From a plasmid: a stretch of 64,000 nucleotides of DNA. Of the stretch, positions 11,327 to 62,164 are shown piece by piece. A program made the position numbers and the translations under genes. Under the pieces are notes generated by a model. That model saw only the letters and a list, made by a program, of their open reading frames with translations, ran no database searches and was not told the DNA's origin. The stretch lies in sequence record CP121101.1; one strand, given 5' to 3'. The stretch's first letter is position 1; each line of letters starts with the position of its first letter.

Positions 11327-11406
11327 TGCGTATTCCGGCGAAGTTGAACAGCCATTCCGGCCAACGTGAACACCCTGATCCTTAACGCGCTCACGTCACC
11401 CCGTTT

Positions 11407-12164
11407 CTAACTCGAGTGTTCAGATTGGGTCAACTCACTTCTCCTCTTTCTCATCGATTCTCCCTTCAGTGACAGCCGGTGAGCGTTGTGCATCAGCCGG
11501 TCCAGGATCGCATCTGCCAGAGTGTTGTCCCCCAAGCTCACGTACCACTCTTCCGTTGGCAGCTGACTGACCACGACCGTCGAGTATTTCCCGTACCGAT
11601 CATCCATGATCTCCAGCAGGGCGTTGCGCTGCTCGGCATTCACCGCTTCCAGTCCCCAGTCATCCAGGATCAGCAGCTCTATCCTTGCCAGTTGACCCAG
11701 CAGTCTGGCGTAACTGCCATCTACCTTGGCCTGGCTCAGCTCAAGTAGCAGACGCGGCAGCCGGTAGTAACGAGTGCTGTGCCCCTGCTGACAGGCTTGG
11801 TAGCCCAGCGCACAGGCTAGGTAGGTTTTTCCGCAGCCACAGGGGCCGGTAATGAGCAGGTTCTGGCCCCGGCGCAGCCACTCTCCTTGGGCCAGGTTTG
11901 CCACCTGTGACCGCTCCAGGTTGCGTGCAGACTGGTAGTCCACCTCTTGCACCGTGGCCTGGAGTTTGAGCCTCGCCTGCTTGACCAGCCGAGCTTGTTT
12001 ACGCTGCTCCCCCGGCTCAGTTGTTCGTGTTCGACCAGCAGGCTTAGCCGCTCGATGAAGGGCAGCCCTTCGTAGGTACTTGCCTGTTCCAGTTGTTGTT
12101 GCACGGCATCCGCCATGCCAGTCAGTTTCAGGTGTCTCAAGCGGGTCAGCGTTTGTTGGGTCAT
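11407..12164 (-). CDS. istB: IS21-family IstB helper ATPase, apparently frameshifted near 12005-12020
   Basis: The N-terminus MTQQTLTRLRHLKLTGM and LLVEHEQL are in one frame. RKQARLVKQ...GPCGCGKTYLA and DDWG (Walker A and B) are in another. The frame switch falls at a cggggga run. Confidence 0.6.
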
Positions 12165-12178
12165 GGGACGTATCCTCT

Positions 12179-13720: not shown

Positions 13721-13941
13721 AGGCTCTTCCCTGGCAAAAGGGAGAGCGTATCAAAGGTTTTTAAATCAATGCGTTAAGGATGATTCCGGTGAATGTGAAC
13801 AGTGATTCCGGGATGTTGAACACTGTTTCCGGAAAGGAGGGGCGAAGTGTTCAGGTTGAACCGGAATGAGCGTTCACATTGGTCCGGAAATGGTGTTCAC
13901 GTTGAATCGGAATTGGTGTTCATGATCGGCCGGAATATGCA

Positions 13942-14202
13942 ACGCAACCATGCATCATTGAACTCCCTTACATTTTTGGCGCAAAAATAAGGGAAGTCCG
14001 GAGATAATATGGTTCCATACTTTCTAAAGTCCGGGGTCCAGCTTGGAGCCTGCATTGTGCCAAGTAATGTCTGCGCGTATGCAGCATGGGTTTCCGACGC
14101 GAATAGTGAGACGCGGTTTTCCAGCCACGTTTCAACATCTTCAGGTTGAACCTCTTGGACCATAAATAAATCGTTGTTAAAGGATTTTTGAAGAAGGTAC
14201 AT
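13942..14202 (-). pseudogene. 5' fragment of the IS-disrupted gene
   Basis: The ORF 13897-14202 reads into the IS end. The intact gene would have been about 185 aa. Confidence 0.5.
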
Positions 14203-15435: not shown

Positions 15436-15487
15436 ATCCCGAGGTTACAAAGGTCTTAAACCGCGGCGAACCACGAGATCTTCATCC

Positions 15488-16657
15488 TTACCCATGAGTG
15501 ACAACCTCCATCTGATCGAGAGCGGCCAGTACCCACGCGCGATCATCATCGCTCATTCTGGTTGACTTGAAGTACCCACGAAGAGCACCCCATTGCTTTG
15601 TCTGTACTGTCCGGCTAAAGCCGATTCGGACATCCCCACGCAACCGATCGGAAGGTAAGTAACCACCCCATGGGAATTTGATAATTTCCTCTAGTGTGGT
15701 TGGTTTTGCACCGATCTGGGCGGCTGGCGTTTCCGCTGGCTCCACTTCGACCTGGACGGCCGGCGTTTCCGCTGGTTCCACTTCGACCTGAACGGCCGGC
15801 GTTTCCGCTGGTTCCACTTCGACCTGAACGGCCGGCGTTTCCGCTTGCTTTGCTTCGACTTGGGCAGTTGGCGTTTCCGCTAGCTTCGCTTCGACCTGGG
15901 CAGCTGGCGTTTCCGCTGGCTTCGCTTCGACCTGGGCAGCTGGCGTTTCCGCTGGCTTCGCTTCGACCTGGGCAGCTGGCGTTTCCGCTGGCTTTGCTTC
16001 GACCTGGGCAGCAGCTGGCGTTTCCGCTGGCTTTGCTTCGACCTGGGCGGCCGGCGTTTCCGCTGGCTTTGCTTCGACCTGGGCGGCCTGTCCACTATCT
16101 ACGACGACAGTAAGGCCCCCATCTTTAGGGCTAAGACTCGCCTGACTTTCATCAGCTGCGTAAACGCCAGTTAATAACCGGATCGTTTGAGCAGTCGATT
16201 TGTGGCCCAACGACCTATTTGGCATGTGACACCAGGCTTCTGTATTGAAGAAGTTCTCAGCCAGATACTCCCGGTGCACAAACCGTCCACCATCAGCAGT
16301 TACCAATGTGGTCTCTATCCACTCATGCCCGCGAACATCCTTGGCCATCTCAGCGAAGGTAAGGACGTTTTCGGAGTAGGTGTGGATGATCTCTCTGACG
16401 CCAGCCTGTTTTGCAAGCTGTAGCCATCCATCTACACGAAGCCCGATCTCAATCCCCAGATTGGTGCGACGAGCAAACATCGTCCCATCAAAAGGGTTGA
16501 GCTGGGTGCGCTCGATGAACCGAATGGTCTTCTTGAAATCCAACGTAGTCGGACTGTAGCCAGCGCAGATCACTTCCAGGAACAACAGGTCTCGAAGCGA
16601 GTCTTTAACTTCGTCGGTCTGGACATCAAGGATTTTCTCTACGGTTTGAATAGCCAT
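15488..16657 (-). CDS. Bet/Red-beta (RecT-family) single-strand annealing protein with a repetitive linker
   Basis: FLEVICAGY..NPFDG..VDGWLQLAKQAG and WCHMPNRSLGHKSTAQTIRLLTG match the lambda Bet motifs VDGW and HPKRMLRHKAMIQCARLAFG. The start is taken as the ATG at 16657, which has a GGAG RBS. Confidence 0.6.
   Translation of the reverse strand: MAIQTVEKILDVQTDEVKDSLRDLLFLEVICAGYSPTTLDFKKTIRFIERTQLNPFDGTMFARRTNLGIEIGLRVDGWLQLAKQAGVREIIHTYSENVLTFAEMAKDVRGHEWIETTLVTADGGRFVHREYLAENFFNTEAWCHMPNRSLGHKSTAQTIRLLTGVYAADESQASLSPKDGGLTVVVDSGQAAQVEAKPAETPAAQVEAKPAETPAAAQVEAKPAETPAAQVEAKPAETPAAQVEAKPAETPAAQVEAKLAETPTAQVEAKQAETPAVQVEVEPAETPAVQVEVEPAETPAVQVEVEPAETPAAQIGAKPTTLEEIIKFPWGGYLPSDRLRGDVRIGFSRTVQTKQWGALRGYFKSTRMSDDDRAWVLAALDQMEVVTHG
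15715..16110. repeat. About 11 tandem 36-bp repeats inside the bet-like CDS, encoding AQVEAKPAETPA units
   Basis: The unit ggccggcgtttccgctggttccacttcgacctgaac repeats directly. The last three copies carry VQVEVEPAETPA. Confidence 0.8.
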
Positions 16658-16669
16658 GTTATTTCTCCA

Positions 16670-16695
16670 AAAAAAAAGCCTCGACAATGCGAGGC
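16670..16695 (-). terminator. Terminator after ssb
   Basis: The hairpin gcctcgcattgtcgaggc is followed by ttttttttt on the minus strand. Confidence 0.6.
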
Positions 16696-16725
16696 TGGTT
16701 GGTGTTGCCATTTCAGGCTGGTTGG

Positions 16726-17310
16726 TTAGGGGCGACGACTACCGTCATATTGCGGCTGCCGGTGTCCATGCTGTTGCTGGGAATTAGCCTGATGTTGCTG
16801 GGAATTTCCCCAGTGTTGCTGAGGTTGCTCCTCCCAGTGTTGCTGGGGTTGCTCCTCCCAGTGTTGCTGGGGTTGTTGAGGTTGTTGCCGGCGAGAAGTT
16901 TGTTGAGGTCTTTGAGGCTGCTTACTCTGCTGAGGCCGCCCTTGCGGATTATTGGCAAAGCCGGACTGCTTCAAACAAGCTATTGCCTCTGCCGGCATGT
17001 GTACGTTGATACACGCCACCTTAACCTTGAGCCCTGAACGGGATTCCCCGCCCTGCTCCCAAGATTCAAAGACAAGCTTCCCTGAAATTTCAAGATAGTC
17101 CCCCTTCTTGATAGCAGGGGTTTTTTCCCCGGAAAGCTCCACCCGAATGAACTGGGTGCGATCTACCCACTGTCCAGATTTGGGGTCCCGATAACCGTCA
17201 TCAATTGCGATGGTTGCCGGGCCATACGGTCCATATTGACCAGTCCGGATGTCGGCATGGCTCACGTAGCCGCCAAGCCTCACTTCGTTTATCTTGTTGT
17301 TCATTCTCAT
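16726..17310 (-). CDS. ssb: Single-stranded DNA-binding protein
   Basis: It has an OB-fold N-terminus (VRLGGYVSHADIRTGQYGP..FIRVELSGEK) and a Q/P-rich tail with QPQQHWEE repeats. I did not see the usual DDDIPF terminus. Confidence 0.65.
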   Translation of the reverse strand: MRMNNKINEVRLGGYVSHADIRTGQYGPYGPATIAIDDGYRDPKSGQWVDRTQFIRVELSGEKTPAIKKGDYLEISGKLVFESWEQGGESRSGLKVKVACINVHMPAEAIACLKQSGFANNPQGRPQQSKQPQRPQQTSRRQQPQQPQQHWEEQPQQHWEEQPQQHWGNSQQHQANSQQQHGHRQPQYDGSRRP

Positions 17311-47726: not shown

Positions 47727-48290
47727 TTGATGATCTCCGTCGCTGTGATTGTCGCGGATCGATCCCTTTCATGTATCTGCGGAAGAAGCGGCAATCCAGC
47801 CAGGAACGCTTCAAGAGCCTTTATCGGCTCTTTTTTATCGACCTCAAAACCGGCATCAAACTGCCAATCGCAGTGAGCCGGTACGGTCTTAGACCAACGG
47901 ATTGCCTGCAACCCCAACGCAAAGCGGAGGCTCTCCAGCTGTCCACGTAGTGATCCAGGATGCACGCTGAAGTAACGCTGTTCTCGGTCCCGACGAATGA
48001 AATTGATCGATCGCCTGCTGACGGTCATTGATGATGTGACGTAGGCGAGTAATCTGCCCGGTGATCCGCGCGTTATGCTTGGCATACTCATCACGCAAAA
48101 GGGCCAGGTCGTTCTGTAGCAGTTCGATTTCAGTGTTGAGCTCTATGAGCGTTTTGTCGCCATAAGTATCACGTGCCATCTCCGCCATTGGCGGAGTTCT
48201 CCTCTCAGGCCGTGTGTCGCCTGGTGAAGCCTGCACCTGCGATATCCCCAGCAGGGCAACGACACTGAATGCCAAAACACTTTTTCTCAT
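47717..48290 (-). CDS. Hypothetical secreted coiled-coil protein upstream of pilL, apparently frameshifted
   Basis: ORFs 47889-48413 (signal peptide MRKSVLAFSVVALLGISQVQA) and 47717-48094 overlap in different frames. Confidence 0.3.
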
Positions 48291-48755: not shown

Positions 48756-49067
48756 AGTGCCCTTCCTTAGTATTCATCACTCATGATGATTGTTGTGGTG
48801 CTGCGGTCTGCCTCAGTGATAACCCATATCCTACCTTGGCCTTTATCAGCCGGCAGGCTGGATAGAACCCTCTCATCATTGCTGATAGCATCAAGGTTCT
48901 TAAGTCTCTGTGCATGGCTCCACAATAACCCCTCTCGATGAGCGTCAAGCAAAGCTGATGACGATATGCCCAGGCGTTCAAGTGTTTCCATAGCGACTGG
49001 AGTGGCCCGCACGTTCCTAAATTAAACATTTGTAGTTCCTGTTTCTGTGCCCTGGAGGCTTAAATTG

Positions 49068-49337
49068 TTAAGCCGCCTTCTCTGCAAGCGCGTTCGCAAG
49101 CAGCAAGGGCCACGCAGGATCGACACTGTTCAATGCCTGAATGACTTGATCAGCATCTAAAACGCAAGATGTGAATGTTGAATTAAGTTTGTCTATGTCT
49201 GCGGCCGGCGATCTCACAACTGTTCTTATGAAGTTGCATCCTTCGCCTGGGTTCACGCTTGCATAAACGTTGGATTCCCCCAGCCTTACAAGCTGGCCAG
49301 TAGAGATAAGTTCTCCAGTTTTGGTTACTTCGAACAT
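49068..49337 (-). CDS. Hypothetical small protein, first gene downstream of repeat copy 5
   Basis: GAGG RBS 5 nt upstream of the ATG, directly after the repeat. Confidence 0.4.
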   Translation of the reverse strand: MFEVTKTGELISTGQLVRLGESNVYASVNPGEGCNFIRTVVRSPAADIDKLNSTFTSCVLDADQVIQALNSVDPAWPLLLANALAEKAA

Positions 49338-49366
49338 GATTATGCCTCGTTGAATTTGGTTTTAAT

Positions 49367-49600
49367 CCCGGGTTGGTGTTGGTCACGAGTGACACATTGC
49401 GGACCGAGTGCCATAAGACAGCCTTGGGCTGTTTCTGCATGTACGCTGACGCCGGAGAATAACCGGTGAACGGACATGCAGAATCAGCCTACGAGGGCTT
49501 GGGTGATGGATCACAGGTGGAAGTACCTGCAGAGTGCAGGTAGAGTTGATGTTGGTGCCAGGCCGGGCGGCCTGTCCCCACGTAGGCACCGAGGACTTAT
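49367..49600 (-). repeat. Copy 5 of the conserved structured element
   Basis: The core 49367-49521 is about 85% identical to copies 1-4. Its 3' hairpin gtgccaggccgggcggcctgtcc..taggcaccgag is shared with copies 2 and 4. Confidence 0.8.
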
Positions 49601-49686
49601 ACAGAATAACCTAGCGGACTAATATCTGGCAATCTGGTACAGATTTAAAAATTGATGGCCATGCATAAATGGCATGGCCATCACAT

Positions 49687-50088
49687 TCAGATGAGGAAAT
49701 CGTCCAGCGAGCGCCCTTGTGCTATCTGCTCAGCCAAGTGCTTCGGGGTGCGCCCCTGACCTGTCCAAGTCTGTTCGTTTCCATCAACAACATAACGATA
49801 CTTGGGCGGTCTCGGAGCGCGTTTTTTCTTTTCACTAGAGTTTACGCCTGAAGCATCCCCGACAAGTTCTTTGGGGTCGATGCCGGCCTTGGCCAGCAAC
49901 TCCTGGAACTCTGCCAACTTACTCATTCGTTCTGATTGAGCAGCCTTTTCTTTGTCTACTTGAGTCTTACGTTCCAAGTACACCAACTCGAATTTTTCGT
50001 GGGCCTCTTGTACTTGTTCAAAGGGCAGATCTCGAAGTGCTGCCCGGAGGCTTCGAATATTCAACAGCATTTTCAAAAATTCTTGCAT
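49687..50088 (-). CDS. hns: H-NS family nucleoid-associated protein (full length)
   Basis: The C-terminus has the TWTGQGRTPK DNA-binding motif. An N-terminal coiled coil is present, as is the GIDPKEL linker. Confidence 0.75.
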   Translation of the reverse strand: MQEFLKMLLNIRSLRAALRDLPFEQVQEAHEKFELVYLERKTQVDKEKAAQSERMSKLAEFQELLAKAGIDPKELVGDASGVNSSEKKKRAPRPPKYRYVVDGNEQTWTGQGRTPKHLAEQIAQGRSLDDFLI

Positions 50089-50920
50089 GTGTGATCCCTA
50101 CTAAAAAATTCAACGGAAAGAAACTAACTATTAATGCTCAATAATTGTCACTCTCCGCTTACCCCATTCTGAGAGTTGTCTATAAACGACTGCGCATCAG
50201 CTTTAGATTATATTGATCTCATAAAAATGAAAATGATATTTTTCATGTTTCGGATACTCTGAGTATTTTTTCTACCCCCACATCACCCATCATGCCCCCA
50301 GATTGGTAACTTTGGCTATATGATCCGATTCCACCCCGGCAGTGGCCCGCGGCGACCAAGACGGAACAACCGATTGGCAATAGCACTGAAGACATACCGC
50401 ACTGGTTGGTAGCCTTAGAGCAAGCCACCAGAACATAACTGCGGTGTTCGAGCCCTACACTTGACGAATCACTGGTTGGCTGGGCCGCCGCAAACACTTG
50501 TGGACGGCTTAGTTCCACAGCAATGCTTTGCGGCACCCTTGAGCCACAATGGGCCGCGACTTGCAAGAGCTCCCCTACAACCCAAACTGAATAATCTGCT
50601 CTGGTGGCGGTTAATCTTCAAGAACATCATCAATCTACCCACCAAAGTGCCGACCAACCTAGTGCTGGGTCTCACCCTAATAACCATTCAACCGAATTAA
50701 TTTTTGTATAGATTGATTGGGCAACTATTTTGTAATTGAGGAACGTCTACCATTCTACGTATTGCCAATCTTGCAAGCGCAAGATTGAATCCGATATCTA
50801 TATCCTGCTCAGGGTATCGAGCGCCCCTCAACTTTATAACTACATTTAAATTACTACCGGTTGTGAACTCAGACCATACGAGTGTATCTTGCTTACAACC
50901 AAAATAGTCCAACAGGGCTA

Positions 50921-51481
50921 TTACATTCTTAGCATAAACACCCTTATAATTACTAATAGCAACTGCATCGGCGAAGTGTTTATATGCTTCAAAGTATTCC
51001 CCTTCTCAACTCCCAACCTTCCAATGTAGCTATATGATGCAGCTAACCCCTCATGAGATAAAGTTTTGTCACCAGAACTAAACTTAATAAATTCAACAAA
51101 CTGCTCCGACTGAGTTTTTGTCAGTTCAAACTCATCCAGATTAACCATGGCCGGCAAATTGACAATAATATTTGCGTCATTTTTTTCCATTCCTGAAAGA
51201 AATGCTTTTTTGGCTAACTTTACCCACTCCAAACGCTCTTCTGTTACATAACAAATCCGGGATGAAAAACGTTCACAGTTTGGTTCCATAACATCAAGCA
51301 TTCTTCGCTCATCAAGATGCTTTATTAAGGCATTTCCATAAACAGTTAAATTGATTGCATTATCCATGCTTTGATTGTGGTACTTATCAACAAGTCTCAC
51401 TCCCTCATAATCTGTGTCTTTGCACCCGCAGAGAACAGCACCCAGGACCACCATACAAAAAGTAATCTCAAATTTATTCAT
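50921..51481 (-). CDS. Lipoprotein in an AT-rich islet
   Basis: It has a lipobox (LGAVLCGC). The local GC is far below the rest of the window. Confidence 0.4.
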   Translation of the reverse strand: MNKFEITFCMVVLGAVLCGCKDTDYEGVRLVDKYHNQSMDNAINLTVYGNALIKHLDERRMLDVMEPNCERFSSRICYVTEERLEWVKLAKKAFLSGMEKNDANIIVNLPAMVNLDEFELTKTQSEQFVEFIKFSSGDKTLSHEGLAASYSYIGRLGVEKGNTLKHINTSPMQLLLVIIRVFMLRM

Positions 51482-51769
51482 ATTTCCCTACCATTCCTTC
51501 ATACATAAGTAATTACCGATAGCACTACGCTTTTATCGTCCATGCTCTCTTCGATATAATCTGCATGAAAATCCGAGCTATCTTACAAATAAAACTCCCG
51601 ATCCTCATGGGGACCTACGAGTATGCTTGGTGCAGAACTATCAGTGCTGATTCTCCCGCTATTTTGTCTAATGCAAGGCTGTCATCGACTCAACACCGAG
51701 TTATTCAGGGCACCGGCCTGTTAGTGCTCCAAGCATCCCACGGGGGCCTTGTTCCACTTGTAATACCGG

Positions 51770-53760
51770 CACCACCCAGCCGGTACTGGCCAACTTGAGC
51801 GCCGAGCTCGCAGCAGCCCGGGGCCACCTGATGCACAGACCCGCCGGACCCAGTACCGGCACAACCCCGCCGGCAGTGGCCAACCTTGGCGACGAGCTCG
51901 CAGCAGCCCGGGGCCACCTGCAGCACTGACCCACCGGACGCAGTACCGGATCCACAGCCAACCTAGACGCCGGGACCGCGGAGGCCCGCAGCCACCTACG
52001 GCACCGGCAACACCGGACACTGCGCCAGATCCCCCCGCCAGCTGTCGCCACCCTGGCACCGAGAGCTCGGCGGCCCAACTGGCGCAGCACCTGATCACCC
52101 TGCCGGCACTGGCCACCTTGGGCGTCGAGCTCGCAGCGACCCGGGACCACCTGCAGCACAGACCCAACAGACGCAGTAACGGATCCCCCGCCGGCAATGG
52201 CCAACCTGGGCGACGAGCTCGCAGCAGCCCAGGGCCACCTGCAGCACTAACCCACCGGACGCAGTACAGGATCCCCCGCTGGCAATGGCCAACCTGGGCA
52301 CCGAGACTTCGGCGGCCCGCAGGACGCTGCACCGGCCTCCCACCCGGTCGACGGCTACTTTGGGTGACGATCTCGCAGTAGCCCAGTACCACCTGTTACT
52401 CCTTCCCACCGGGCGAAACACCGAATCACACGCCGGCTGTGGTCACCCTGGTCGTCGGACTCCCAGCGGCCCAGGGCCACCTGCTACTCCTTCCCACTAG
52501 GCGAAGCGCGCCGGGTCACCCCGCCACCGCTGGGTAACCTCTGCCCGAAACCGCAGCGACCCGAGGCCACCGGCAGCACAGACCCGCCGGACCCAGTACC
52601 GGCACCACCCCACCGGCAGTGACCAACCTGAGCGCTGAGACCGCGGCGTCCAGGGGCCACTTGCTGCACCGGCAACACGGGGCGCACAGACCCGCCGGAT
52701 GCAGTTCCGGATCACCCGCCGGCTGTGGCCCCCTGGGTGCCGGCTCGCAACTGCCCGGGGCCACCGGCTACACCGACCCAACTGGCGCAGCACCTGATCA
52801 CCCAGCCGGCAGTGGCCACCCAGGGCGTTGAGCTCGCAGTGGCCTGAGGCCACCGGAAGCACAGACCCGCCGGATGCATTACCTGATACACCCCGCCGGC
52901 GGGACCGCGGAGGCCCGCAGCCACCTGGTGCACCGACCCCCACCCGGTCGATGGCCACCCTGGGCGCCGGCTCGCAACTGCCCGGGGCCACCGGCTACAC
53001 CGACGACCAACAACTGGTGCAGTACCTGATCACCCCGCCAGCAGTGGCCACCCAGGGCGCCGGCTCGCAGCTGTACGGAGCTACCTGCAGCACCGACCCA
53101 CCGGACGCAGTGCCGGATCCACCCCGCCGGCGTTGGCCACCCTCGGCGCCAGGACCGCGGAGGTCCGCAGCCACCTACGGCACCGGCAACACCGGACACT
53201 GTGCCAGATCCCACCGCCAGCAGTGGCCAACCAGGGCGACGAGCTTGCATCTGTACGGAGCTACCTGCAGCACCGACCCACCGGACGCAGTACCGGATCC
53301 ACCCTGCCAGCAGTGGCCACCCTCGGCGCCGGGACCGCGGTGGCCCGCAGCCACCTGCAGCACCGACCCACCGGACGCAGTACCGGATCCACCCTGCCAG
53401 CAGTGGCCACCCTCGGCGCCGGGACCGCGGTGGCCCGCAGCCACCTACGGCACCGGCAACACCGGACACAGCGCCAGATCCCACCGCCTGCAGTGGCCAA
53501 CCTGGGCGACGACAAGCTCGCAGCAGCCCGGGGCCACCTGCTGCACCGGCAACACCGGACACTGCGCCAGATCCCACCGCCAGCAGTGGCCACCCAGGGC
53601 GTGGAGCACGCAGCGGCCCGGGGCCACCTGCAGCACAGACCCACCGGACGCAGTACCGGATCCACCCCGCCAACAGTGGCTACCCTCGGCGCCGGGACCG
53701 CGGAGGCCCGCAGCCACCTATGGCACCGGCAGCACAGACCCGCCGGGCGCAGTAACGGAT
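51770..53760. repeat. GC-rich (about 70%) tandem repeat array, about 90-bp period and about 20 units, central units degenerate
   Basis: Direct repeats of ...ggcgacgagctcgcagcagcccggggccacctgcagcaccgacccaccggacgcagtaccggatcc... alternate with a related variant. All six frames are largely open. One plus-strand frame (ORF 52828-53790) shows third-position wobble. Confidence 0.8.
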
Positions 53761-53767
53761 AATAAAA

Positions 53768-53800
53768 ATCCGCCTCAAGGGGCGGATTAGGTTTTTCCAA
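53768..53800. terminator. Bidirectional rho-independent terminator
   Basis: The hairpin aatccgcctcaaggggcggatt is flanked by T-runs on both strands. Confidence 0.6.
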
Positions 53801-54076
53801 TTTCAATAAGTGGTGATCAGCGCGGTGCCCGGCAGCATCTTGACGCAGTTGGTGACGATAGGGCGTTGAGGTTCAATGGCCTTACCTGCCTCCTGCATTG
53901 ACTCACCAGCCTGCTGCAAGGCCTACAACAGTCGTCGATAAGCCTACGTAAGGGCAAGGCAAATACTGTTATCCATTCGGTCGGCAAAGCGTTCTGCCGG
54001 GTTTCTGCACTCGGCCAAGACGCCAGTACAACGGAGCCAAGCGCCATTTGCTTGATCTTCATTGGTGTTTTTTCTC

Positions 54077-54400
54077 TTACTTACCAACTTCGACTTGGGT
54101 ATCCGAAATCAGCTGCTGCATTTCTTCGATATGGCGGCGATCAGAGTCGTCTAGTTCGGTGCTCTCGGCCAGATAATCCAGATCTTCGGCCAGCCTGAAA
54201 GTCAAATTCTGCAACGTGGTAATCCGGCCCAGCGCCACAACCTGAGCCATCGTCAGCCCCTCCCAATTTGACCAGGGACATTCTGCAACAGGGTGCGCCC
54301 ATGTCTCCCCACTCAGGGTATCCGGCCCATTCCGGGGCTCTAGCTTCGCCCCACAACAACCGCAGTTCTGTTCAGCCATGCCGTATTCCCTCTTACTCAA
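54077..54400 (-). CDS. Hypothetical Cys-rich protein
   Basis: It contains CGCCGAKL..C near the N-terminus. Confidence 0.35.
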   Translation of the reverse strand: MSKREYGMAEQNCGCCGAKLEPRNGPDTLSGETWAHPVAECPWSNWEGLTMAQVVALGRITTLQNLTFRLAEDLDYLAESTELDDSDRRHIEEMQQLISDTQVEVGK

Positions 54401-54770
54401 GCCGCAAACGTTCTTGCGCCATCATTAGCTCATATCCGCTGATCCGATCTACCCCTTGAACATCACGTTTGGGTGATCGAATTTCCTTACCGTTAACTGT
54501 GCCCGTCAGTATCCACTGTCGAAGCTGGCCAAGCGATAGGCCCAACTGCTTGGCTGCATCGTCCATGCGCCATGAATACTTGAGAAGTAGATCATCTGCT
54601 ACTTGGTCAAAATTCCCGGCCAGCATCCGTTCCAGCGCACGACGAGCCAAGCCCTCAGCAATGTCTCCATAGCGGGCAGTGTTGTAAGTAACCCGCAGCC
54701 CATTGTACTGCGCCTGCCACTGGCCTGTTGCGGCCTTAAAGGAGAGTCCTTTAGGGAGTCGGTCGCTCAC
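54393..54770 (-). CDS. Hypothetical protein
   Basis: 125-aa ORF whose stop overlaps the start of the next gene (54393-54400). Confidence 0.35.
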   Translation of the reverse strand: MSDRLPKGLSFKAATGQWQAQYNGLRVTYNTARYGDIAEGLARRALERMLAGNFDQVADDLLLKYSWRMDDAAKQLGLSLGQLRQWILTGTVNGKEIRSPKRDVQGVDRISGYELMMAQERLRLE

Positions 54771-54796
54771 GGTTCCTTTACCTCAATATGACGGGC

Positions 54797-55246
54797 TTAA
54801 TGAGCCCACGACTGCGCGTTATATGGAGTCTCCAGCAGCTCACCACGAAGAATGCAGTCCCCTAAGAACGCAGCCCTCGATTCAACCCACTTCACCTCCT
54901 CTGGTAGGCAAGCTGCGAGGTCAAACATGCAATAGAGATGGCGTTGCCGGTACGTATCTTTTTCAGATTTGAGCCCATCACGTAAGGCTCGGATGCTTTG
55001 AACAATGATCACTTCTTGCCCGCGGTGCAACACGGCTACTCCGCATTTTCGTCCCAACCGACCCAGCTCAAACTGGTCTATGGCACCATCGGCGTAATCC
55101 AGTTCAACGATGCGGGCGGCCTGACCTTCAATCAGCTTAAGTGCAACTTCTTTGCTACCCGCTTGCAGAATATTCATCGTTTTTCCCAAGTAATCATCAC
55201 TCAATGTCATTTGTGGGTTCTTTACACCAGGCTCTAGATGTTCCAA
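54797..55246 (-). CDS. Hypothetical protein
   Basis: ORF; the start is uncertain. Confidence 0.3.
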   Translation of the reverse strand: MEHLEPGVKNPQMTLSDDYLGKTMNILQAGSKEVALKLIEGQAARIVELDYADGAIDQFELGRLGRKCGVAVLHRGQEVIIVQSIRALRDGLKSEKDTYRQRHLYCMFDLAACLPEEVKWVESRAAFLGDCILRGELLETPYNAQSWAH

Positions 55247-55458
55247 TGGCCACCACCCCCATCACTACGCCTGCCAAAAACACGCATAGAAAGGTCAAGC
55301 ATAAACTCTCATATCTAATTGATATATCGACCAAAACAATCAAAGAAAATATCGCAATAAGAACTATCAATCCAGCTATCGGATGTAACCTTATGCCTAA
55401 ATTTCTAACCGATGTTGGTTTACCATATTGTTTAAAGTTCAACCCCATTTTCCCTCGA

Positions 55459-55800
55459 TCAGTTGCTTGTTGCTGCGAGCATATCAGCCGCCATGACGTT
55501 AGCCAGCTCGGGAGCCAATACTGTAGTGGCGCTGATCAGCCTGTACTCGCTCGTCTCATACTCGCTCGGCCAGCCTACCAGTTCGGCATGAACCTTGATA
55601 AGGCCGGACTTCGACAAACCAGCGCCGAGAGCTTCAATAAACTGCTTGTCGCCATCCTCGGCTATATCATCAAGAACCATCTTCCGCACATCCGCGTCAT
55701 GTGATGACACCTCAAGAACGGCACCGGCCGACCAGCTCACACCAAGTGCTATCAATGCTGTAAATGTCATTTCCATGGTCTTTGATTCCTTGCTTTCCAA
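55459..55800 (-). CDS. Hypothetical protein
   Basis: 113-aa ORF. An 83-aa membrane ORF lies downstream at 55197-55448. Confidence 0.3.
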   Translation of the reverse strand: MESKESKTMEMTFTALIALGVSWSAGAVLEVSSHDADVRKMVLDDIAEDGDKQFIEALGAGLSKSGLIKVHAELVGWPSEYETSEYRLISATTVLAPELANVMAADMLAATSN

Positions 55801-57158
55801 TCAGCTTGCTTTCGCGTAAGGAGCCGGTGGTCTCCCCTTTCACGTATCTTCGACATTGCCGGTTCTTTGTAAAGATGCACACTCTACTTGTGCCGGCATT
55901 GTGTGGTTTTCACACAATGGCCATCAGTTTCTCAGTGCTAATTCTCCCACTGGTTTTACCAATGCAAGGCGGCCGCCCCTTCAACACAGGTATTCAGGCC
56001 GCCGACTCGCCGGACGCTGTGGACTTGATCTCTCAACCAGCTCGGCACAGGTCCGGGGCGATCCAGCCCTACCACACCGGCAGCGTAAACGCTGAACATC
56101 GATTAGCTCGGTGGTCCATTGCCACCTGCAGCCACTGGATGCTAATCCATATCACTGGTTGAGGTCGTTCTTAGCTCCGTGCACCAGATCAATGACACCA
56201 GAGCTGGCCGCTCTGGAGGCGCAGTAAGCACCATCGGATAAAGGTTCCCGAACTCTACATTCACCCCGGCAAGGGCCCTCAGGTCACCAGCCGTGTCGAC
56301 CCCAAATATCAAGCCGGTCGGCAGCTCGCTTCCACCTACAGTGCTAGCAGCGCCGAACTATACACCTGACCTCCGGAACCAGCCCTAACCACTCTGAACC
56401 TACGTACCAGCTCAGTGGTACCGGCGTGCCCCCTTGGATGCTGAGCTCACAGCGGCCCAAGGCATGTCAGATCCCTCCCCTCCTCTCGGCCGAAGCGAGC
56501 TAAACCGAGCCCTGGGTCCCGAGATCGGCATGCACACCGACAAAAGCCCACAACCATCCCCAGGCCCCTCCGCTCACCGGCACCGGTGCAGGTCTCCCAG
56601 GACGCCGAATCCACTGTGGCCAGGGGTCCGTAACATCTGGTCCTTCAAGGGTACTGGGTCCAGAACTCGGCAAGCACACCAACTAGATCCCGCCACCACC
56701 ATTGCAGGCCCCACTAAACACCTGCACCGACCCAGGATCCGTTGAACACTTCGCACAAGCTCACTGGTGCCCCCTTCCCTGAAATCAACCAGTAGGCATC
56801 CCACACCAGGTCACCAGCCCCGACGCTAGCCGCTCAGGGGGTGCCTTGAAAGACGCCGTAGCACAGAGGCCCGAATTCAGCATGCACACAGACAAAAGCC
56901 TGGGCCTAGCACACGAGTGAGATCTTCCGGGCCACTTGCTGTACCGCGAGCACATTGATAGTGCAGGCCAACACCAATCAGAACTGGGGGCTAATCAGGC
57001 GTGTGTTCAGGAGGCTGTGACTGGCGGGCTCGCCAGTGAATACCTGCAACTTGCTGACGGAATGGATTTGCCCGTCAGTGCGCTCATGGCGCCAGTTGCA
57101 TTGCGAAGATCTGGGGGATGATCGAAGTAAGCAAAAAAATCGTCTACGGGTGCTATAA

Positions 57159-60100
57159 ATGTCCTTTTTGAACGCAACGGCTTTCCTTGATTACTTGTTC
57201 TGCCCTCCCCTTTCAGGGCACAAAACAACCGTCATCGCAAAAACGGTGTCCCAAAAAATCAGGTGCAATATTGAAGCGATCAAAATTGTAAAGCGCTGCT
57301 TGGCTGATGGCTCGCTGGCTGTATCTGACGTCGAGCGTGATGTCCTTACTCAGTATACCGGATGGGGTCAACTATCAGGACTCTTTGAGCCAGAACACCC
57401 CCAGCATGCCGAATTGAAATCGCTAGTCACTCAAGCAGAATTCGCTGCGTTGGAAGCATCTGTATTGACCTCCTATTACACCTCCGAATGGATTATTGAT
57501 GCCATGTATCGTGCCGTGGCACGCCTGGGTGTGCAGGAAGGTCTATTACTCGATTTCGCTACAGGCTCAGGTAAATTTTTGGCGGGGCGCCCAGCGACTC
57601 TTTCAGCGATGAAATCCTTTGCTGTTGAGTTGGATGGCCTGACAGGGACTATCGCCCGCCTGCTGAACCCTGCAGCCAAGATCTATGTCAATCAGCCGTT
57701 CGAGCAAGTAAAGCTCCCGAATAGTGGCGACTTTTCCCTAGTTATTGGAAACCCGCCATACTGCTCTGTTCCTGCCAGGGATAGAGCATTTGGCACTCTT
57801 CCACTACATGCCTACTTTCTGATTAGGGGGTTGAGCGAACTGCACCACGGCGGGCTAATGGCTGTTGTCGTATCAAGCTGGGTAATGGACTCGAAAGATA
57901 ACGATGCGCGGCTATCTCTCTCGGCCAGGGGAAATTTGGTTGCAGCCTGTCGTCTGCCGAATTCGGTGTTCAAGGGTGAAGGAGCCAACGTTGTTACCGA
58001 TATTCTGGTCTTTCAAGCCTGCCAGCACCCGGAAGAAAACCCTTCATGGATCGACACCGTAGAGGTCAACGACGAAGCAGGCTCGGCATATCGTGTGAAT
58101 CGCTTGTTTGTGGATCGTCCTGAACTCGTCGCCGGCAAAATCTCAGCTCCTAGCACCTTCAATGTGTCTTGCAACGTTGCAGACCCTGGCCGTGATCTTG
58201 CGAGTGTTGTAACTGAAATCCTCGATATCCAGACTTCCAACCCCTTATTTTACCGTAAGTCTACGGTTCCAGTTGCAAGGAAAGGCGTCATTTCTGCCCC
58301 CGCTGGTATGAGCGATGTTGGGCCATATGAGTTTTGCCAAACTCCGGCGGGCGAGTTGATGCGTCGAGTGGCAGATCATGTTGATGAAAACGGGGCTAAG
58401 GTGCCCACGTTCCAACAGTGCGAGTTTAAATCAGCCAAGGATAGGCTGCGTATATCGGCCATGCTGAGAGTTAAGAGGGTCTTGGCATCACTCATCAACG
58501 CAGAGCAAAGCAATGCGCCAGACACCAGCTTGCGAGCTATTAGGGCTGATCTTAATGCAACCTATGACCGCTTTACTGCCGACTTCGGTCCGTTCCACGC
58601 CTCAAAAAACAAATCTGTACTTGGGGAAGATCCGTGGTATTACCGCTTACGTGCTCTCGAGCTGGACTACATCGCACCGATCAGTACCACGGTTGCCGAA
58701 AAGGAGGGCATCGCAGAGCGTAAAGAGCAATGGAGTAAGGGGGATCTGTTCACCCGCCGCGCAATCACTCCGTTGATCACTCCCAGCTATGCCGCGAACC
58801 TTGCCGACGCCGTGCTAATTTCCGTGAGCTACAAGGGTGAGGTCGATCTTTCATACGTTCGGGATCTGGTCGGCTTTAAAGGGACAGACCAAGAACTTTT
58901 GCATCAGTTGGCCGAACAATCTCTGGCATTTGCCGAACCAGATAGTGGCAACCTGGTCATTGCTGCAAAGTACCTTTCAGGTTACATCCCCAGCAAGATT
59001 GAGGCTGCACAAGGAGCGGCCGAATCCGACCCTCTGTTTGCTATCAATGTTGCCAAACTGCAGCGAGTCATGCCCTCCCCCATCAAGGCGGTAGACATTT
59101 TTGCACCGATGAACTCCCGTTGGCTGCCTAACCATTTCCACGCCGATTTTATCCGCCATCTGGTCGATCAGCCCAAATTGAATGCACAAGTTACCCTTAT
59201 CGACAACGAGTATCATGTTTCGCATGGCTCTCTTCCTCAAACCGTCTTAACCTCTGAATGGGGTACGCAGCGCCGCGATATGACCACCTTGCTCATTGCG
59301 CTTTTGAACAATCGCGCGATTGAGGTACGCGATCCACATCCGAGCATATCTAATACGACTGTTCCGAACCCGGACGAAACAATGGCCGCCCAACACAAAG
59401 CAGAGGAAATTAAGGCGGCCTGGGAGTCGTGGGTGCTGGATGATTCCGAACGCCGCAACGAAATTGAGCTTGCTTATAACGCACATTTCAACGGCTTTGT
59501 TGCCCCAAATATAATGGCTCACGCCTGCCTTTAACTGGTAGTGCAGTAGACCTATATCACACACAGAGAAACGCCATTGCTCGGGTCATTCATGAGTCGT
59601 GCACTTTGATCGATCACGCTGTCGGCGCCGGAAAAACGTTCACAATGATTGGCGCGGCAAGCGAACTAAGACGCATTAATAAATATGAGCGTGTAGTGCT
59701 GGTCGCGCCTAATCATCTTGTTGCTCAGCATGCCACCGCTGCACAATTTATTTTCCCTGGCATGAACATCTTTGTGCTCGATAAAACGATGATGACCCCG
59801 GCCACACGCCGCACAGCCTTAGCCCGCCTTGCAATGACAGACTTCGATCTATGCATCATCCCGCTGAGTGTGTTCGGGCTAATCCCAGCCCCTCACGATC
59901 TCTTAGTCGAAATGTTGGAAGCAGAGATTGATGATCTTCACCGGTGTTTGTCGGAGCTGAAAAATGAGCGGTTATCTGTACGCCGGATGCAGACGCGGAT
60001 CCAGCGCAAAGAAGCAGAACTCGAAGAACTGGTGAACAAACGCACTGATGAAATGCTCGACTTTGCTGACCTAAGGATCACAACTCTAATCATTGATGAG

Positions 60101-62164
60101 AGCCAATTCGGTAAGAACCTAAGTTATTCTTCATCCCTGCAAAGCGTTGCCGGCATGGGCCAGGCATCAGGCAGTAAGCGTGCCTTTGATCTATTTATCA
60201 AAAGCCGTGCTGTTCTGCGTGCCGGTGGGCGATATGTTGAGGCTACCGGAACACCAATCCTCAACTCCGTTGTGGAAGCACATCGACATCTGCGAGTGAT
60301 GGCCGAAGATTTTACTCAGTCAGCAAAGCTGACCCACTTTGACGCATTCAGTGCAGTTTTCGCCCAGCCAGTGACAGATTATGAATTGGCGGCGTCCGGG
60401 CGCGGCTACAAGATGAGAACTCGAATTAGTACATTCACAAATTTGACAGAGCTTCAAGCTATCTACTCAAGCTTCGCTGATGTAGTTACTTCTGAGCAGT
60501 TGCCTAATGTCTTGCCAAAACTAGCTGATGGCCGCAGTGCTATACCTCCCCTCACAGGGGGCAAGATCATCGAGCTGGTGATTGAACCCAATGAGCACCA
60601 GGAAAACGGCTTCGCCGAAATCGTCAGTGCATATTCTCGAGTCGATAACCGGGAGAACAACCCCCTTAAACTGCTCAACCGGGGGCGAATGCTCTCTCTC
60701 GATGCTCGGCTTGTGTACCCAGACGCACCGGACTACCAGGACAGCAAAATTAATACCGTAGTGCGCTACCTGCTCGAAAAATATCAAACGACAACTAGCG
60801 TTCGCGGTACTCAGATGGTCTTCATGGATCGCAGCATTCCCGCTCGCCATCGTGCCGGAGCTTCGAAAGAGTGGGCGGCAATATTCAACCTTGCTAGGCA
60901 GGGCGATGAAGAAGCGTTAGAGCGTATTGAAGGCCTAGACGAACTCGAACTTACCGCCATGGTCTGCAGTTCATTCAGCCTCTACGATGAGCTGGTAGAA
61001 AAATTGGTTGAGGGTGGCGTCCCCCGCAACGAGATCGCAGTGATCCACGATTACCGGACGGACACCAGAAAGGAAGCGTTGCGTGACATGATGAATGAGG
61101 GGCAGATCCGAATTTTGCTTGGCTCTACTGAACTGGCAGGCTCTGGGCTCAATATCAACCGGCGTTTGGTTTCGTTGGTTCACTTCGATCTCCCATATCG
61201 GCCCGGTGATTTGGCGCAACGAGCTGGCCGCATTGAGCGCCAAGGCAATCTGTTATGGGCGAATGACCCCGAGTTCACCATTGATATTGTTGTGCCAATC
61301 ACCCGTCGCTGTCTTGATGCTTGGCAACTGGGTTTGCTCAACACCAAGCAGCGCTTTATCAGCCGTTTCCGTCAACTCGATAGCTCAGTCCGGCACTACA
61401 CAGAGCAAAATGAAGCGATTGATTATGCCGAGTTAAGCGCCATCGTAGCCGATGACCCGCGAATCCTGGCTCATGTCAAAGGCAAAGCAAAGCTGCGAAA
61501 GCTTGAGGCAGCCCGGAATAACTGGTTCCGGAATCGCGTCAGATTGGACGACCAGGCACAATCCCTTGAGCAAAGAAGCGCAACCTTGGCGACCAAAATA
61601 CAGATGATTCGAGCCGATGCAGCTAACATTGCGGCCACGGCGGATGAGTTGTTGATCACTGTGGATGGTGTGACATATGAAAAAATGGGGGTGGATTCGA
61701 CGGCTACAGATCGTCTAAACATAACCGCCGCCGCCCCGGCTGTCGGTTCAAAATATGGCAGACTGAACTACCGTGCAGATATTGGCAGTCAACACGACAT
61801 GGCTACTTACCGGGGGGCTACTCTGGTCTATGAAAAGCCGTATTTCGCCAAGTTGTGCTTCGCCACCGAGTTCACAGTTCGCGGCCCCTCTGGTCATCAC
61901 TACGAGCTGAGAAATTTAGAGCGCAATAGCATTAACGCTGTGATGGCCGCCTTTGTCGTGCTCGTCGATACCTTGCCGCGCTTACCAAACATAGCCACGG
62001 CCCAAATGGCTACTTGGACAAAGAACGCTACCGACTATCGCACTGAGGCAGCGAAGCCATTCAGCGCCCAAGCAGAGCTTGATGAACTGATCCCATTTTT
62101 GCGGCAACTTGAAAAGGAATTGGCAGATTCAGCCACACATTCAGTAAATCAAATGGCCGCTTGA
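57159..62164 (+). CDS. N6-adenine DNA methyltransferase fused to an SNF2/DEAD-like helicase, with the frame interrupted near 59480-59534
   Basis: The MTase motif I is LLDFATGSGKFL and motif IV is VIGNPPYCS. The helicase motifs are HAVGAGKTF, IIDESQFG and QRAGRIERQG. The helicase frame stays open upstream to 59480 (YNGSRLPLTGSAVDLYHTQRNAIARVIHESCTLIDH) and overlaps the end of the MTase ORF. Confidence 0.65.

What the first reader, a model, noticed from the sequence alone, without database searches (positions are those of the whole stretch)
51770..53760. A 2-kb tandem-repeat array of about 70% GC in a roughly 50% GC element
About 20 direct repeats with a period near 90 bp alternate between two related variants: ...gagctcgcagcagcccggggccacctgcagcaccgacccaccggacgcagtaccggatcc... 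and ...gggaccgcggaggcccgcagccacctacggcaccggcaacaccggacactgcgccagatcc.... The central units (52300-52600) are degenerate. The array is bounded by an AT-rich lipoprotein islet on the left and a bidirectional terminator at 53768-53800 on the right. All frames are mostly open. In one plus-strand frame the variable position in cagcac(a/t/c)gaccc is a synonymous Thr third position, which hints at a Pro/Trp-rich 30-aa protein repeat (...WPPSAPGPRWPAATCSTDPPDAVPDPP...). That frame carries a stop in the first unit, and no signal peptide is evident. The alternatives are a repetitive surface or secreted protein, a partition or centromere-like iteron array (a ParB-like gene lies 9 kb away), or satellite-like DNA acquired from a high-GC donor.
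Basis: seen in the sequence. Interest (0 to 1): 0.8.

Follow-up and report, generated by a model that had tools for sequence, protein, structure and literature searches.

The report
GC-rich satellite DNA on Aeromonas plasmids
The 2-kb block of ~90-bp head-to-tail repeats is real but is not a gene: it is one copy of an undescribed, very GC-rich non-coding repeat family that large Aeromonas resistance plasmids keep at the same three backbone sites, and its job, if it has one, is unknown.

Summary
Window 51766-53760 holds 23 direct units of about 90 bp (55-106 bp), 71% GC and only 9.5% T on the + strand. A bidirectional terminator closes the array at 53767-53788.

It is not protein-coding:
- No ORF spans it.
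- Many units are 88, 89 or 91 bp.
- Sister arrays have periods of 98/99/197, 77/104 and 95 bp.
- Variation among units shows no 3-base periodicity.
- No protein family matches.

It is not a structured RNA either: there is no Rfam hit and no excess folding.

The window is 99.5% identical to Aeromonas plasmid pAER-f909. That plasmid has four arrays of this family, all in one orientation. One is a decayed second array inside the window (56000-56950). pK433-NDM carries arrays at the same three backbone sites. The distantly related plasmid pAeme3 has three arrays.

Arrays change by whole-unit gains and losses, and their GC content tracks how homogeneous they are (rho 0.98). I found the family in 16 Aeromonas plasmids and in four metagenome contigs that carry the same plasmid loci. 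It is absent from one-genome-per-species contigs, E. coli genomes, phages and viral contigs. No paper I found describes it.

My best reading is non-coding satellite DNA, probably retained as a cis-acting DNA element. That function is inferred, not shown.

The parts
51766..53760 (+). Main array ('array C'): 23 head-to-tail units of about 90 bp, 71% GC, C-rich and T-poor on the + strand. Non-coding.
52286..52620 (+). Degenerate central units (u07-u10) of the main array.
   Evidence: low HMM scores
52952..53760 (+). Most regular block of the array. Two unit variants alternate here, giving a 180-bp higher-order period. A 90-bp unit at 53263-53352 is missing in the sister plasmid.
51641..51715 (+). 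75-nt segment left of the array. It recurs left of the second array and in plasmid pS121-1a. Function unknown. It is not shared by all arrays.
53767..53788 (.). Bidirectional intrinsic terminator that closes the array on the right. It also ends the minus-strand operon 55246-54077.
55932..56004 (+). Second copy of the 75-nt segment (75% identical to the first).
56000..56950 (+). Second, decayed array of the same family ('array B'). It is 61% GC with the same strand bias and is no longer detectably tandem. It lies directly upstream of the methylase-helicase gene. It is homologous to parts of the arrays of pK433-NDM and pS121-1a.
56528..56545 (+). Conserved 18-mer GCATGCACACCGACAAAA. It is found only inside or at the end of arrays of this plasmid family, always in the array's orientation.
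56880..56897 (+). Second copy of the 18-mer (GCATGCACACAGACAAAA), at the end of array B.
50921..51481 (-). Flanking gene: 186-aa ORF with a lipoprotein-like N-terminus and no Pfam match. It starts next to the array.
54077..55800 (-). Cassette of small ORFs of unknown function (107, 125, 149, 83 and 113 aa) enclosed between arrays C and B. It is absent at this place from pK433-NDM and pS121-1a.
57159..62164 (+). Flanking gene: N6-adenine methylase fused to an SNF2-type helicase. It is split into two ORFs in the window. Arrays of this site lie upstream of it in all plasmids of the family examined.

Best explanation
The array is non-coding satellite (minisatellite) DNA. It belongs to a repeat family specific to large Aeromonas plasmids.

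**Shown**
- It is neither a gene nor a structured RNA.
- It turns over by gain and loss of whole units and by homogenisation into higher-order repeats.
- The family sits at the same three backbone sites in diverged plasmids, all in one orientation.
- Homogeneous arrays are 76-80% GC and decayed ones 60-69%.

**Inferred**
- The blocks persist at fixed sites even after they have lost their repetitiveness.
- A core (GTGGCCACCCTGGGC..CCGAGCTC, GGCGGCCCGGGGCC, CACCGGATC) survives between plasmids whose backbones no longer align.
- For these two reasons the blocks are most likely retained as cis-acting DNA.
- My preferred mechanism is a multi-site platform for an oligomerising DNA-binding protein encoded by the plasmid or the host. 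Candidates are the KfrA-like protein next to array D and the PRTRC ParB-like protein 5 kb from array B.
- Such a platform would act in plasmid maintenance or organisation rather than as a classical centromere or origin.

**How sure.** About 0.9 that it is non-coding satellite DNA, about 0.55 that it is retained for a cis-acting function, and about 0.35 that the function is a protein-binding platform. The confidence given (0.55) is for the statement as a whole.
For: **Non-coding**
- No spanning ORF exists.
- Unit lengths are not multiples of 3.
- Indels of 2, 5 and 3 nt separate the window from the sister plasmid.
- Periods elsewhere are 98/99/197, 95/97/68, 117/43 and 77/104 bp.
- There is no 3-periodicity of variation.
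- There are no Pfam or PDB hits.

**Not a structured RNA**
- There is no Rfam hit at E<=1.
- Folding z-scores are -0.02, +0.70 and -1.19.

**Satellite dynamics**
- Against pAER-f909 there are only 4 substitutions in 2.6 kb, but one +90 and one -90 unit indel.
- pK433-NDM has 197-bp higher-order repeats at 99% identity.
- GC content against repetitiveness gives Spearman 0.98 over 10 arrays.

**Persistence at fixed sites**
- pAER-f909 has four arrays, all on one strand.
- pK433-NDM has arrays at the same sites: rep/par, H-NS/methylase-helicase, and primase/KfrA-like protein with integrase.
- Decayed arrays of 1-1.5 kb are still present.

**Sequence constraint**
- pAeme3 arrays are about 70-75% identical to those of the MOBH plasmids. 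Their flanks show no DNA similarity and only 28-52% translated (tblastx) identity.
- Shared core k-mers occur in 9-10 of 11 arrays.

**Candidate binders nearby**
- A KfrA_N-domain protein lies next to array D. KfrA of RA3 binds direct repeats cooperatively (PMC7783346).
- A PRTRC ParB gene lies near array B.
Against: - No binding was tested, and no experiment or expression data exist.
- Unit length varies from 43 to 117 bp without constant helical phasing. No dyad is strictly conserved: AGTGGCCACC alternates with GGAGGCCACC. Both are unlike known centromeres or iterons.
- Arrays evolve faster than the backbone: about 70% identity between pAER-f909 and pK433-NDM, against 87-94% for their flanks.
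- Conservation between plasmid lineages could come from exchange between co-resident plasmids rather than from selection.
- Same orientation and shared strand bias can be inherited from one ancestral unit. They are not independent evidence.
- The core does not occur elsewhere in the window, for example in promoters.
Confidence: 0.55

Rival explanations
1. Neutral or selfish satellite. A GC-rich seed expanded by slippage and unequal recombination and spread to a few intergenic sites. It persists only because expansion balances loss, and it does nothing for the plasmid.
For: - Copy number changes fast and higher-order repeats form.
- Unit length varies.
- Some arrays have simply decayed.
- There is no conserved dyad or phasing.
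- GC rising with homogeneity fits GC-biased conversion within arrays.
Against: - The same three sites are occupied in diverged plasmids.
- Decayed, no longer recombinogenic blocks of 1-1.5 kb have not been deleted.
- The core survives between backbones that no longer align.
- The arrays take up 3.4-4.2% of each plasmid.
Confidence: 0.3
2. GC-rich boundary element. The blocks act through composition, not sequence. They would be stretches that the AT-preferring silencer H-NS cannot coat, insulating backbone modules from one another. The plasmid encodes its own H-NS at 49687-50088.
For: - The plasmid is about 50% GC and the arrays 60-80% GC with very few A/T steps.
- Arrays lie between functional modules, often between a terminator and the next promoter region.
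- Function by composition would tolerate the observed freedom in unit length, and would allow decayed arrays to keep working.
- An H-NS gene lies 1.7 kb from the array.
Against: - No precedent is known to me.
- It does not explain conservation of specific core motifs, nor the conserved 18-mer.
- H-NS occupancy is untested.
Confidence: 0.1
3. Classical plasmid centromere (ParB or ParR binding array, like sopC) or replication iterons.
For: - The units are direct repeats on a low-copy plasmid.
- A ParB-family gene lies 9 kb away.
- One array of the family lies between the rep-like gene and parAB in sister plasmids.
- Related ICEs and RA3 have long direct repeats in or near putative origins (PMC2647930; PMC9455977).
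Against: - parAB has its own upstream 33-bp repeats, and the rep-like gene its own 7 x 22-bp iterons, both elsewhere.
- There are three or four arrays per plasmid.
- Unit length varies from 43 to 117 bp.
- No AT-rich unwinding region or dyad core is present.
- This particular array is 20-25 kb from rep and par in pAER-f909.
Confidence: 0.08
4. Long repetitive non-coding RNA, transcribed in the C-rich direction from the left flank and ended by the terminator at 53767-53788.
For: - In the C-rich direction, arrays C and D are followed by strong terminators.
- A 75-nt segment is shared upstream of arrays C and B and of the pS121-1a array.
- Strand-asymmetric composition is conserved.
Against: - There is no promoter-like site on the + strand within 350 bp upstream of the array.
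- Upstream regions of the other arrays are unrelated.
- There is no Rfam match and no excess structure.
- The terminators also serve convergent neighbouring genes.
- A 2-kb untranslated C-rich RNA would be a target for Rho termination (general knowledge).
Confidence: 0.06
5. Protein-coding 30-aa repeat gene (surface or secreted protein), or its recent pseudogene.
For: - Long open frames exist on the + strand of the right half (320, 209 and 184 aa).
- One frame ends at a stop just before the terminator.
Against: - All three + frames are open simply because T is about 9%.
- Frames are broken by units of 88, 89, 91 and 65 bp.
- Other arrays have periods not divisible by 3.
- There is no codon-position bias.
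- No family, structure or real homologue was found. The four database 'proteins' are ORFs called on the same arrays.
Confidence: 0.02

Closest known systems
DR1/DR2 long repetitive sequences of the IncU plasmid RA3 from Aeromonas hydrophila (PMC9455977)
   Same: - Non-coding composite direct repeats on an Aeromonas plasmid.
- Built of alternating unit variants: r1 38 bp, r2 42 bp, r3 60 bp.
- C-rich and T-poor on one strand (T 16%).
- Units begin with GGTGGCCAA.
- Their function was described as unknown. DR2 raises origin activity and r3 behaves as a putative iteron.
   Different: - No significant sequence homology: nhmmer E>10, alignment p 0.06-0.29.
- RA3 repeats are 339 and 557 bp long and about 56-62% GC, and they flank the replication genes.
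- The arrays here are 1-4 kb and 70-80% GC, occur at three or four sites, and this one is far from rep.
Putative oriV repeats of the pKLC102 / PAPI-1 / PFGI-1 / ICEHin1056 family of conjugative islands (PMC2647930, PMC2258188)
   Same: - The conjugation genes are annotated as the same kind (integrating-conjugative-element families such as PFL_4669, plus type IV pilus genes).
- In PFGI-1, a G+C-rich stretch of 46-bp direct repeats lies among ParB, nucleoid-protein, helicase and SSB genes. Each repeat carries a GGCC-centred imperfect inverted repeat.
   Different: - Those repeats are few (four in PFGI-1), short and at one site, and were assigned to oriV by sequence features only.
- Homology to the arrays here was not tested, because I did not have those sequences.
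- Here a separate rep-like gene with 22-bp iterons exists.
sopC centromere of plasmid F (12 direct repeats of 43 bp, each with a SopB-binding inverted repeat; from my own knowledge)
   Same: Tandem direct repeats of tens of bp on a low-copy conjugative plasmid that act purely as DNA.
   Different: - sopC adjoins sopAB, has a fixed 43-bp unit of about four helical turns with a conserved dyad, and occurs once.
- The arrays here are not next to parAB, vary in unit length and lack a strict dyad.
Bacterial minisatellites / MIRU-VNTR loci of Mycobacterium tuberculosis (from my own knowledge)
   Same: - Units of 40-100 bp in tandem.
- Dispersed over several intergenic loci that share one unit family.
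- GC-rich.
- Copy number differs between close relatives by whole units.
   Different: - MIRUs are chromosomal, with few copies per locus, and match the GC content of their genome.
- Here 20-48 units per locus sit on plasmids and are 20-30 GC points above the backbone.
CRISPR arrays
   Same: Regularly spaced direct repeats. For two of the arrays, a shared 'leader-like' flank.
   Different: There are no unique spacers: the whole 90 bp repeats. No cas genes are annotated in pAER-f909, and the repeat has no hairpin.

Membership tests
Protein-coding tandem-repeat gene | One continuous ORF with a start codon spanning the repeats | tested here: not met
   The longest ORFs cover at most the right half (320 aa). 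All six frames are interrupted.
Protein-coding tandem-repeat gene | Unit length a multiple of 3, conserved among relatives | tested here: not met
   Units of 88, 89, 91 and 65 bp. Sister arrays have periods of 98/99/197, 95/97, 77/104 and 117/43 bp. Indels of 2 and 5 nt separate the window from pAER-f909.
Protein-coding tandem-repeat gene | Codon-position bias of substitutions; homologues or domains | tested here: not met
   Entropy by column mod 3 is not different in four arrays (p 0.36-0.48). No Pfam or PDB match. The only database hits are ORFs called on the same arrays.
Plasmid centromere (sopC / parC / parS type) | Lies next to the partition operon it serves | tested here: not met
   In the 99.5%-identical plasmid pAER-f909, parA-parB lie about 20 kb away with their own 33-bp repeats. 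No parA gene is annotated in the pAER-f909 regions that align with the window.
Plasmid centromere (sopC / parC / parS type) | Fixed unit with a conserved dyad or short binding motif in constant helical phase | tested here: not met
   Unit length varies from 43 to 117 bp among arrays. GTGGCCAC alternates with GAGGCCAC.
Plasmid centromere (sopC / parC / parS type) | Bound by the cognate ParB/ParR; exerts partition incompatibility | not testable with these tools
   Needs ChIP, EMSA and incompatibility tests.
Replication iterons / oriV | 17-22-bp repeats next to the rep gene, with an AT-rich unwinding region | tested here: not met
   pAER-f909 has 7 x 22-bp repeats directly upstream of a 658-aa rep-like gene elsewhere. 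This array is 71% GC and 25-30 kb from it.
CRISPR | Short repeats separated by unique spacers; cas genes | tested here: not met
   Units abut one another with no unique spacers. No cas genes are annotated in pAER-f909.
Structured non-coding RNA | Match to a known family or a thermodynamically unusual fold | tested here: not met
   No Rfam match at E<=1 over 49000-58000. Folding z-scores are -0.02, +0.70 and -1.19.
Minisatellite / dispersed tandem-repeat family (MIRU-like) | Head-to-tail units of tens of bp in non-coding DNA | tested here: met
Minisatellite / dispersed tandem-repeat family (MIRU-like) | Copy number differs between close relatives by whole units | tested here: met
   One +90 and one -90 bp indel with only 4 substitutions against pAER-f909.
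Minisatellite / dispersed tandem-repeat family (MIRU-like) | Several loci share one unit family; homogenisation within loci | tested here: met
   Four loci in pAER-f909 and three each in pK433-NDM and pAeme3. Locus-specific periods and higher-order repeats.
RA3-type DR1/DR2 long repeats | Sequence homology to r1/r2/r3 | tested here: not met
   nhmmer E>10. Local alignments are no better than shuffles (p 0.06-0.29).
RA3-type DR1/DR2 long repeats | Composite alternating units flanking the replication module | tested here: inconclusive
   Alternating variants are present. Only one of the family's loci (array A of sister plasmids) lies beside the rep-like gene. This array does not.

The most novel reading that the evidence does not exclude
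The arrays are a new kind of plasmid cis-element. They would be kilobase-scale GC-rich satellites kept at module boundaries of AT-rich Aeromonas megaplasmids. They would work either as loading platforms for an oligomerising maintenance protein (KfrA-like or ParB-like) or as H-NS-refractory insulators. On this reading their rapid unit turnover is tolerated because only the core motifs or the composition matter. The closest analogy is a bacterial-plasmid counterpart of functional eukaryotic satellite DNA.
Probability: 0.2. Interest if true: 0.7.

Novelty: new variant of a known kind. Interest (0 to 1): 0.5.

Why it matters
These plasmids are 160-240 kb and carry NDM-1, MOX and integron-borne resistance genes in clinical and wastewater Aeromonas. 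Each devotes 6-8 kb (3.4-4.2%) to unannotated GC-rich satellites at conserved backbone sites.

- **If the arrays bind a maintenance protein or insulate modules**, they are an unrecognised part of the backbone and a possible target or marker for this plasmid group.
- **If they are neutral**, they are a rare clear case of satellite-DNA dynamics in a bacterial replicon: higher-order repeats, birth and decay, and GC content tracking homogenisation.

There are also practical consequences:
- Gene callers place spurious ORFs on the arrays.
- Short-read assemblies break or collapse there.
- Direct repeats at several sites can split or rearrange the plasmid.

Tried and rejected
1. **Restriction-site decoy.** Six-bp palindromes are about 2x enriched in the array (77 against 41±6; consensus unit p about 0.01). 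But the same sites are just as common, and not avoided, in the backbone. Dropped.
2. **Chi or KOPS-like polar signals on the G-rich strand.** There is no GCTGGTGG in any array. I saw only near-misses by eye. The Aeromonas Chi sequence is unknown to me, so this is not fully excluded.
3. **G-quadruplex.** G-runs are separated by more than 20 nt (read from the sequence). Not pursued.
4. **Universal leader or promoter.** The 75-nt shared segment is limited to arrays C and B and pS121-1a. Upstream regions of the other arrays are unrelated. There is no convincing sigma-70 site.
5. **General association with the methylase-helicase gene.** Homologues are widespread on conjugative plasmids (1992 records), but the nearest one outside Aeromonas (pEMT1) has no array upstream.
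6. **High-GC donor.** Core-pattern scans of genome, metagenome and viral contigs gave only single chance hits, for example inside an ORF conserved among three Zobellella species.
7. **A shared array-binding protein between pAeme3 and the MOBH plasmids.** The only small protein conserved near arrays has a hydrophobic, membrane-anchor-like N-terminus, so it is unlikely to bind DNA.
8. **Homology to RA3 DR1/DR2.** Not significant.
9. **Literature.** Papers on pK433-NDM and on Aeromonas plasmids do not mention the arrays. Klockgether 2004 on pKLC102 is not held in the library.
Full report
**1. The observation**

Window 51766-53760 is a tandem array.
- Tandem Repeats Finder gives periods of 88-90 bp, with higher-order periods of 180 and 363 bp.
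- Cutting at the TGGCCA anchor and aligning gives 23 units of 55-106 bp, mostly 84-93 bp.
- A profile HMM recovers 21-23 units there. BLAST with two consensus units finds none elsewhere in the window.
- The array is 71% GC in a window of about 50% GC. It is strongly asymmetric: C 0.42, G 0.29, A 0.19, T 0.095 on the + strand.

**2. It is not a gene**

- No ORF spans the array.
- Many units are 88, 89, 91, 65 or 66 bp.
- The near-identical sister array differs by 2-, 5- and 3-nt indels.
- Homologous arrays in other plasmids have periods of 98/99/197, 95/97/68, 117/43 and 77/104 bp.
- In pK433-NDM all three + frames are open for more than 2 kb. That is only because the strand has 8% T, and each 'protein' reads successive units in different frames.
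- Variation among units shows no 3-base periodicity in four arrays (p 0.36-0.48).
- Translations hit no Pfam family or solved structure.
- A search of 5.8 billion cluster-representative protein sequences found four sequences. All four are ORFs called on the same arrays in metagenome contigs of the same plasmid family.

**3. It is not a known or structured RNA**

There is no Rfam match at E<=1 on either strand. Folding energies equal those of shuffled sequence, with z-scores of -0.02, +0.70 and -1.19. No promoter-like site points into the array.

**4. What the element is part of**

The window is 99.5-99.8% identical to Aeromonas sp. plasmid pAER-f909 (171 kb, MOBH relaxase). It differs by an IS21 insertion, one inverted segment and an ISL3 element that interrupts the methylase-helicase gene in pAER-f909 but is absent from the window. 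The neighbours of the array run in this order:
- type IV pilus genes;
- H-NS (49687-50088);
- a lipoprotein-like ORF;
- the array;
- the terminator;
- a cassette of small unknown ORFs on the minus strand;
- a second, decayed array;
- a methylase-helicase gene;
- PRTRC ParB;
- DnaN.

The second array (56000-56950) is 61% GC with the same strand bias. It shares unit variants with the pK433-NDM array.

**5. A dispersed family**

Only 16 records in the plasmid collection match, and all are 81-244 kb Aeromonas plasmids. The arrays carry no listed feature in the collection's (incomplete) gene table, apart from a few short ORFs that overlap them.

Assembling pAER-f909 from fetched pieces and scanning it with the HMM shows four arrays, all on the same strand:

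| Array | Record position | State | Neighbours |
|---|---|---|---|
| A | 52.9-54.4 kb | decayed | between a rep-like gene with 7 x 22-bp iterons and parAB |
| B | about 75.0-75.95 kb | decayed | window 56000-56950 |
| C | 78.2-80.1 kb | regular | this finding |
| D | 132.5-134.3 kb | 21 units, 80% GC | between a primase-like gene and genes for a KfrA_N-domain protein and a tyrosine recombinase |

- pK433-NDM has arrays at the same three sites (A, B/C and D) in the same orientation. Each has its own unit length.
- pAeme3 has F-type transfer genes. Its flanks share no DNA similarity with pAER-f909, and translated (tblastx) matches reach only 28-52% identity. Yet it carries three arrays that are 70-75% identical to the others.
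- Exact-pattern scans found no array in 596 Gb of species-representative genomes, in metagenome contigs or in viral contigs. BLAST found none in E. coli genomes or phages.
- The only arrays outside the 16 plasmids are on four metagenome contigs of the same plasmid family, found through the protein search.

**6. Dynamics**

- Against pAER-f909 the array has 4 substitutions but one unit gained and one lost.
- pK433-NDM has 197-bp higher-order repeats at 99% identity.
- Across ten arrays, GC content rises with the fraction of repeated 14-mers (Spearman 0.98). Homogeneous arrays are 76-80% GC, and decayed ones 60-69%.
- Arrays diverge faster than the backbone within the MOBH plasmids: about 70% against 87-94%. 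They are no more diverged between plasmid lineages whose backbones are unalignable.
- A core is shared by 9-10 of 11 arrays: GTGGCCACCCTGGGC and GGCGGCCCGGGGCC. CACCGGATC is also among the better-conserved segments.
- An 18-mer, GCATG(C/T)ACAC(C/A)GACAAAA, occurs only inside or at the end of arrays of the MOBH plasmids, always in array orientation.

**7. Interpretation**

It is shown that this is non-coding satellite DNA with whole-unit turnover, and that it is a conserved, multi-site feature of an Aeromonas plasmid group. Function is inferred.

I favour retention as cis-acting DNA for three reasons:
- The same sites are occupied in diverged plasmids.
- Decayed blocks of 1-1.5 kb have not been deleted.
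- The core survives between unalignable backbones.

The most likely mechanism is a multi-site platform for an oligomerising DNA-binding protein. A KfrA_N-domain protein is encoded 2 kb from array D. RA3 KfrA binds direct repeats cooperatively and contacts the partition proteins. A PRTRC ParB gene lies 5 kb from array B.

Against this reading, unit length and helical phase are not conserved, no dyad is strict, and nothing has been tested. The main rival is a neutral satellite. Lesser rivals are a GC-rich H-NS-refractory boundary, a classical centromere or iteron, and a repetitive RNA.

**8. Comparison with what is known**

- **RA3 DR1/DR2** are the closest described objects. They are composite direct repeats on an Aeromonas plasmid, described as 'of unknown function'. 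DR2 boosts origin activity (PMC9455977). They are not detectably homologous to these arrays. They are also much shorter, less GC-rich and confined to the replication module.
- **PFGI-1/pKLC102-type islands** have transfer genes annotated as the same ICE-type families. Their putative oriV contains G+C-rich direct repeats (PMC2647930; PMC2258188).
- **sopC and MIRU-type minisatellites** are analogies from my own knowledge.
- No paper I could find mentions these arrays.

**9. Verdict**

The protein reading is refuted. The satellite reading is supported, without a high-GC donor. The centromere or iteron reading is unsupported in its classical form. I class this as a new variant of a known kind: plasmid non-coding direct-repeat arrays, or bacterial minisatellites. 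Interest is moderate because the function is unknown but directly testable.

Noticed in passing
window 56000-56950: A second, decayed array of the same repeat family directly upstream of the methylase-helicase gene. It shows up only as a 60% GC, A>T, C>G island.
   Followed up: yes
pAER-f909 record 132519-134290 (about 3.3 kb beyond the left end of the window); L167/L005: The best-preserved array of the family: 21 units of 90/91 bp, 80% GC. It lies between a primase-like (Toprim) gene and genes for a KfrA_N-domain DNA-binding protein and a tyrosine recombinase.
   Followed up: yes
window 11326-13942: IS21-family insertion (IstA-like 12179-13720, IstB-like 11407-12270, both minus strand). It is absent from pAER-f909. 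Repeats of 21-46 bp lie at 13781-13935 near its end.
   Followed up: partly
window 37845-38811: A 967-bp segment inverted relative to pAER-f909. It is bounded by 158-nt inverted arms (77% complementary) and lies beside the type IV pilus genes. It may be an invertible (shufflon-like) switch.
   Followed up: partly
window 15712-16087 (in ORF 15488-16711, minus strand): A 36-bp tandem repeat of 10.4 copies (a multiple of 3, unlike the finding) inside a 407-aa ORF with no Pfam match. A 24-bp repeat lies at 16809-16875.
   Followed up: no
window 57159-59534 and 59606-62164: The N6-methylase/SNF2-helicase gene is split into two ORFs in different frames. It is one 1668-aa ORF in pK433-NDM and in a metagenome contig, and is interrupted by ISL3 in pAER-f909. 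The split is either a frameshift mutation or a sequencing error.
   Followed up: partly
window 56528-56545 and 56880-56897; also pAER-f909, pK433-NDM, pS121-1a: An almost invariant 18-mer, GCATG(C/T)ACAC(C/A)GACAAAA. It occurs only inside or at the end of arrays, always in array orientation. It is absent from the pAeme3 regions examined (28.8 kb, covering its three arrays). Meaning unknown.
   Followed up: partly
window 51641-51715 and 55932-56004; L004 7186-7395: A conserved 75-nt (up to 210-nt) segment between an array and the start of the adjacent minus-strand gene. It is shared by three arrays. No convincing promoter was found in it.
   Followed up: partly
pAER-f909 record 48128-48286, 15484-16392 and 56733-56806: The sister plasmid has 7 x 22-bp iterons upstream of a 658-aa rep-like gene, a Tus-like terminus-binding protein gene, and 33-bp repeats upstream of parA. 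These are likely the real origin, a replication-termination protein and the partition site.
   Followed up: no
L175, L172, L173, L176 (ENA metagenome contigs): Short-read assemblies of the same plasmid loci break inside array C or carry only 5-7 units at locus D. Gene callers place ORFs on the arrays. This is a likely repeat-collapse and annotation artefact.
   Followed up: partly
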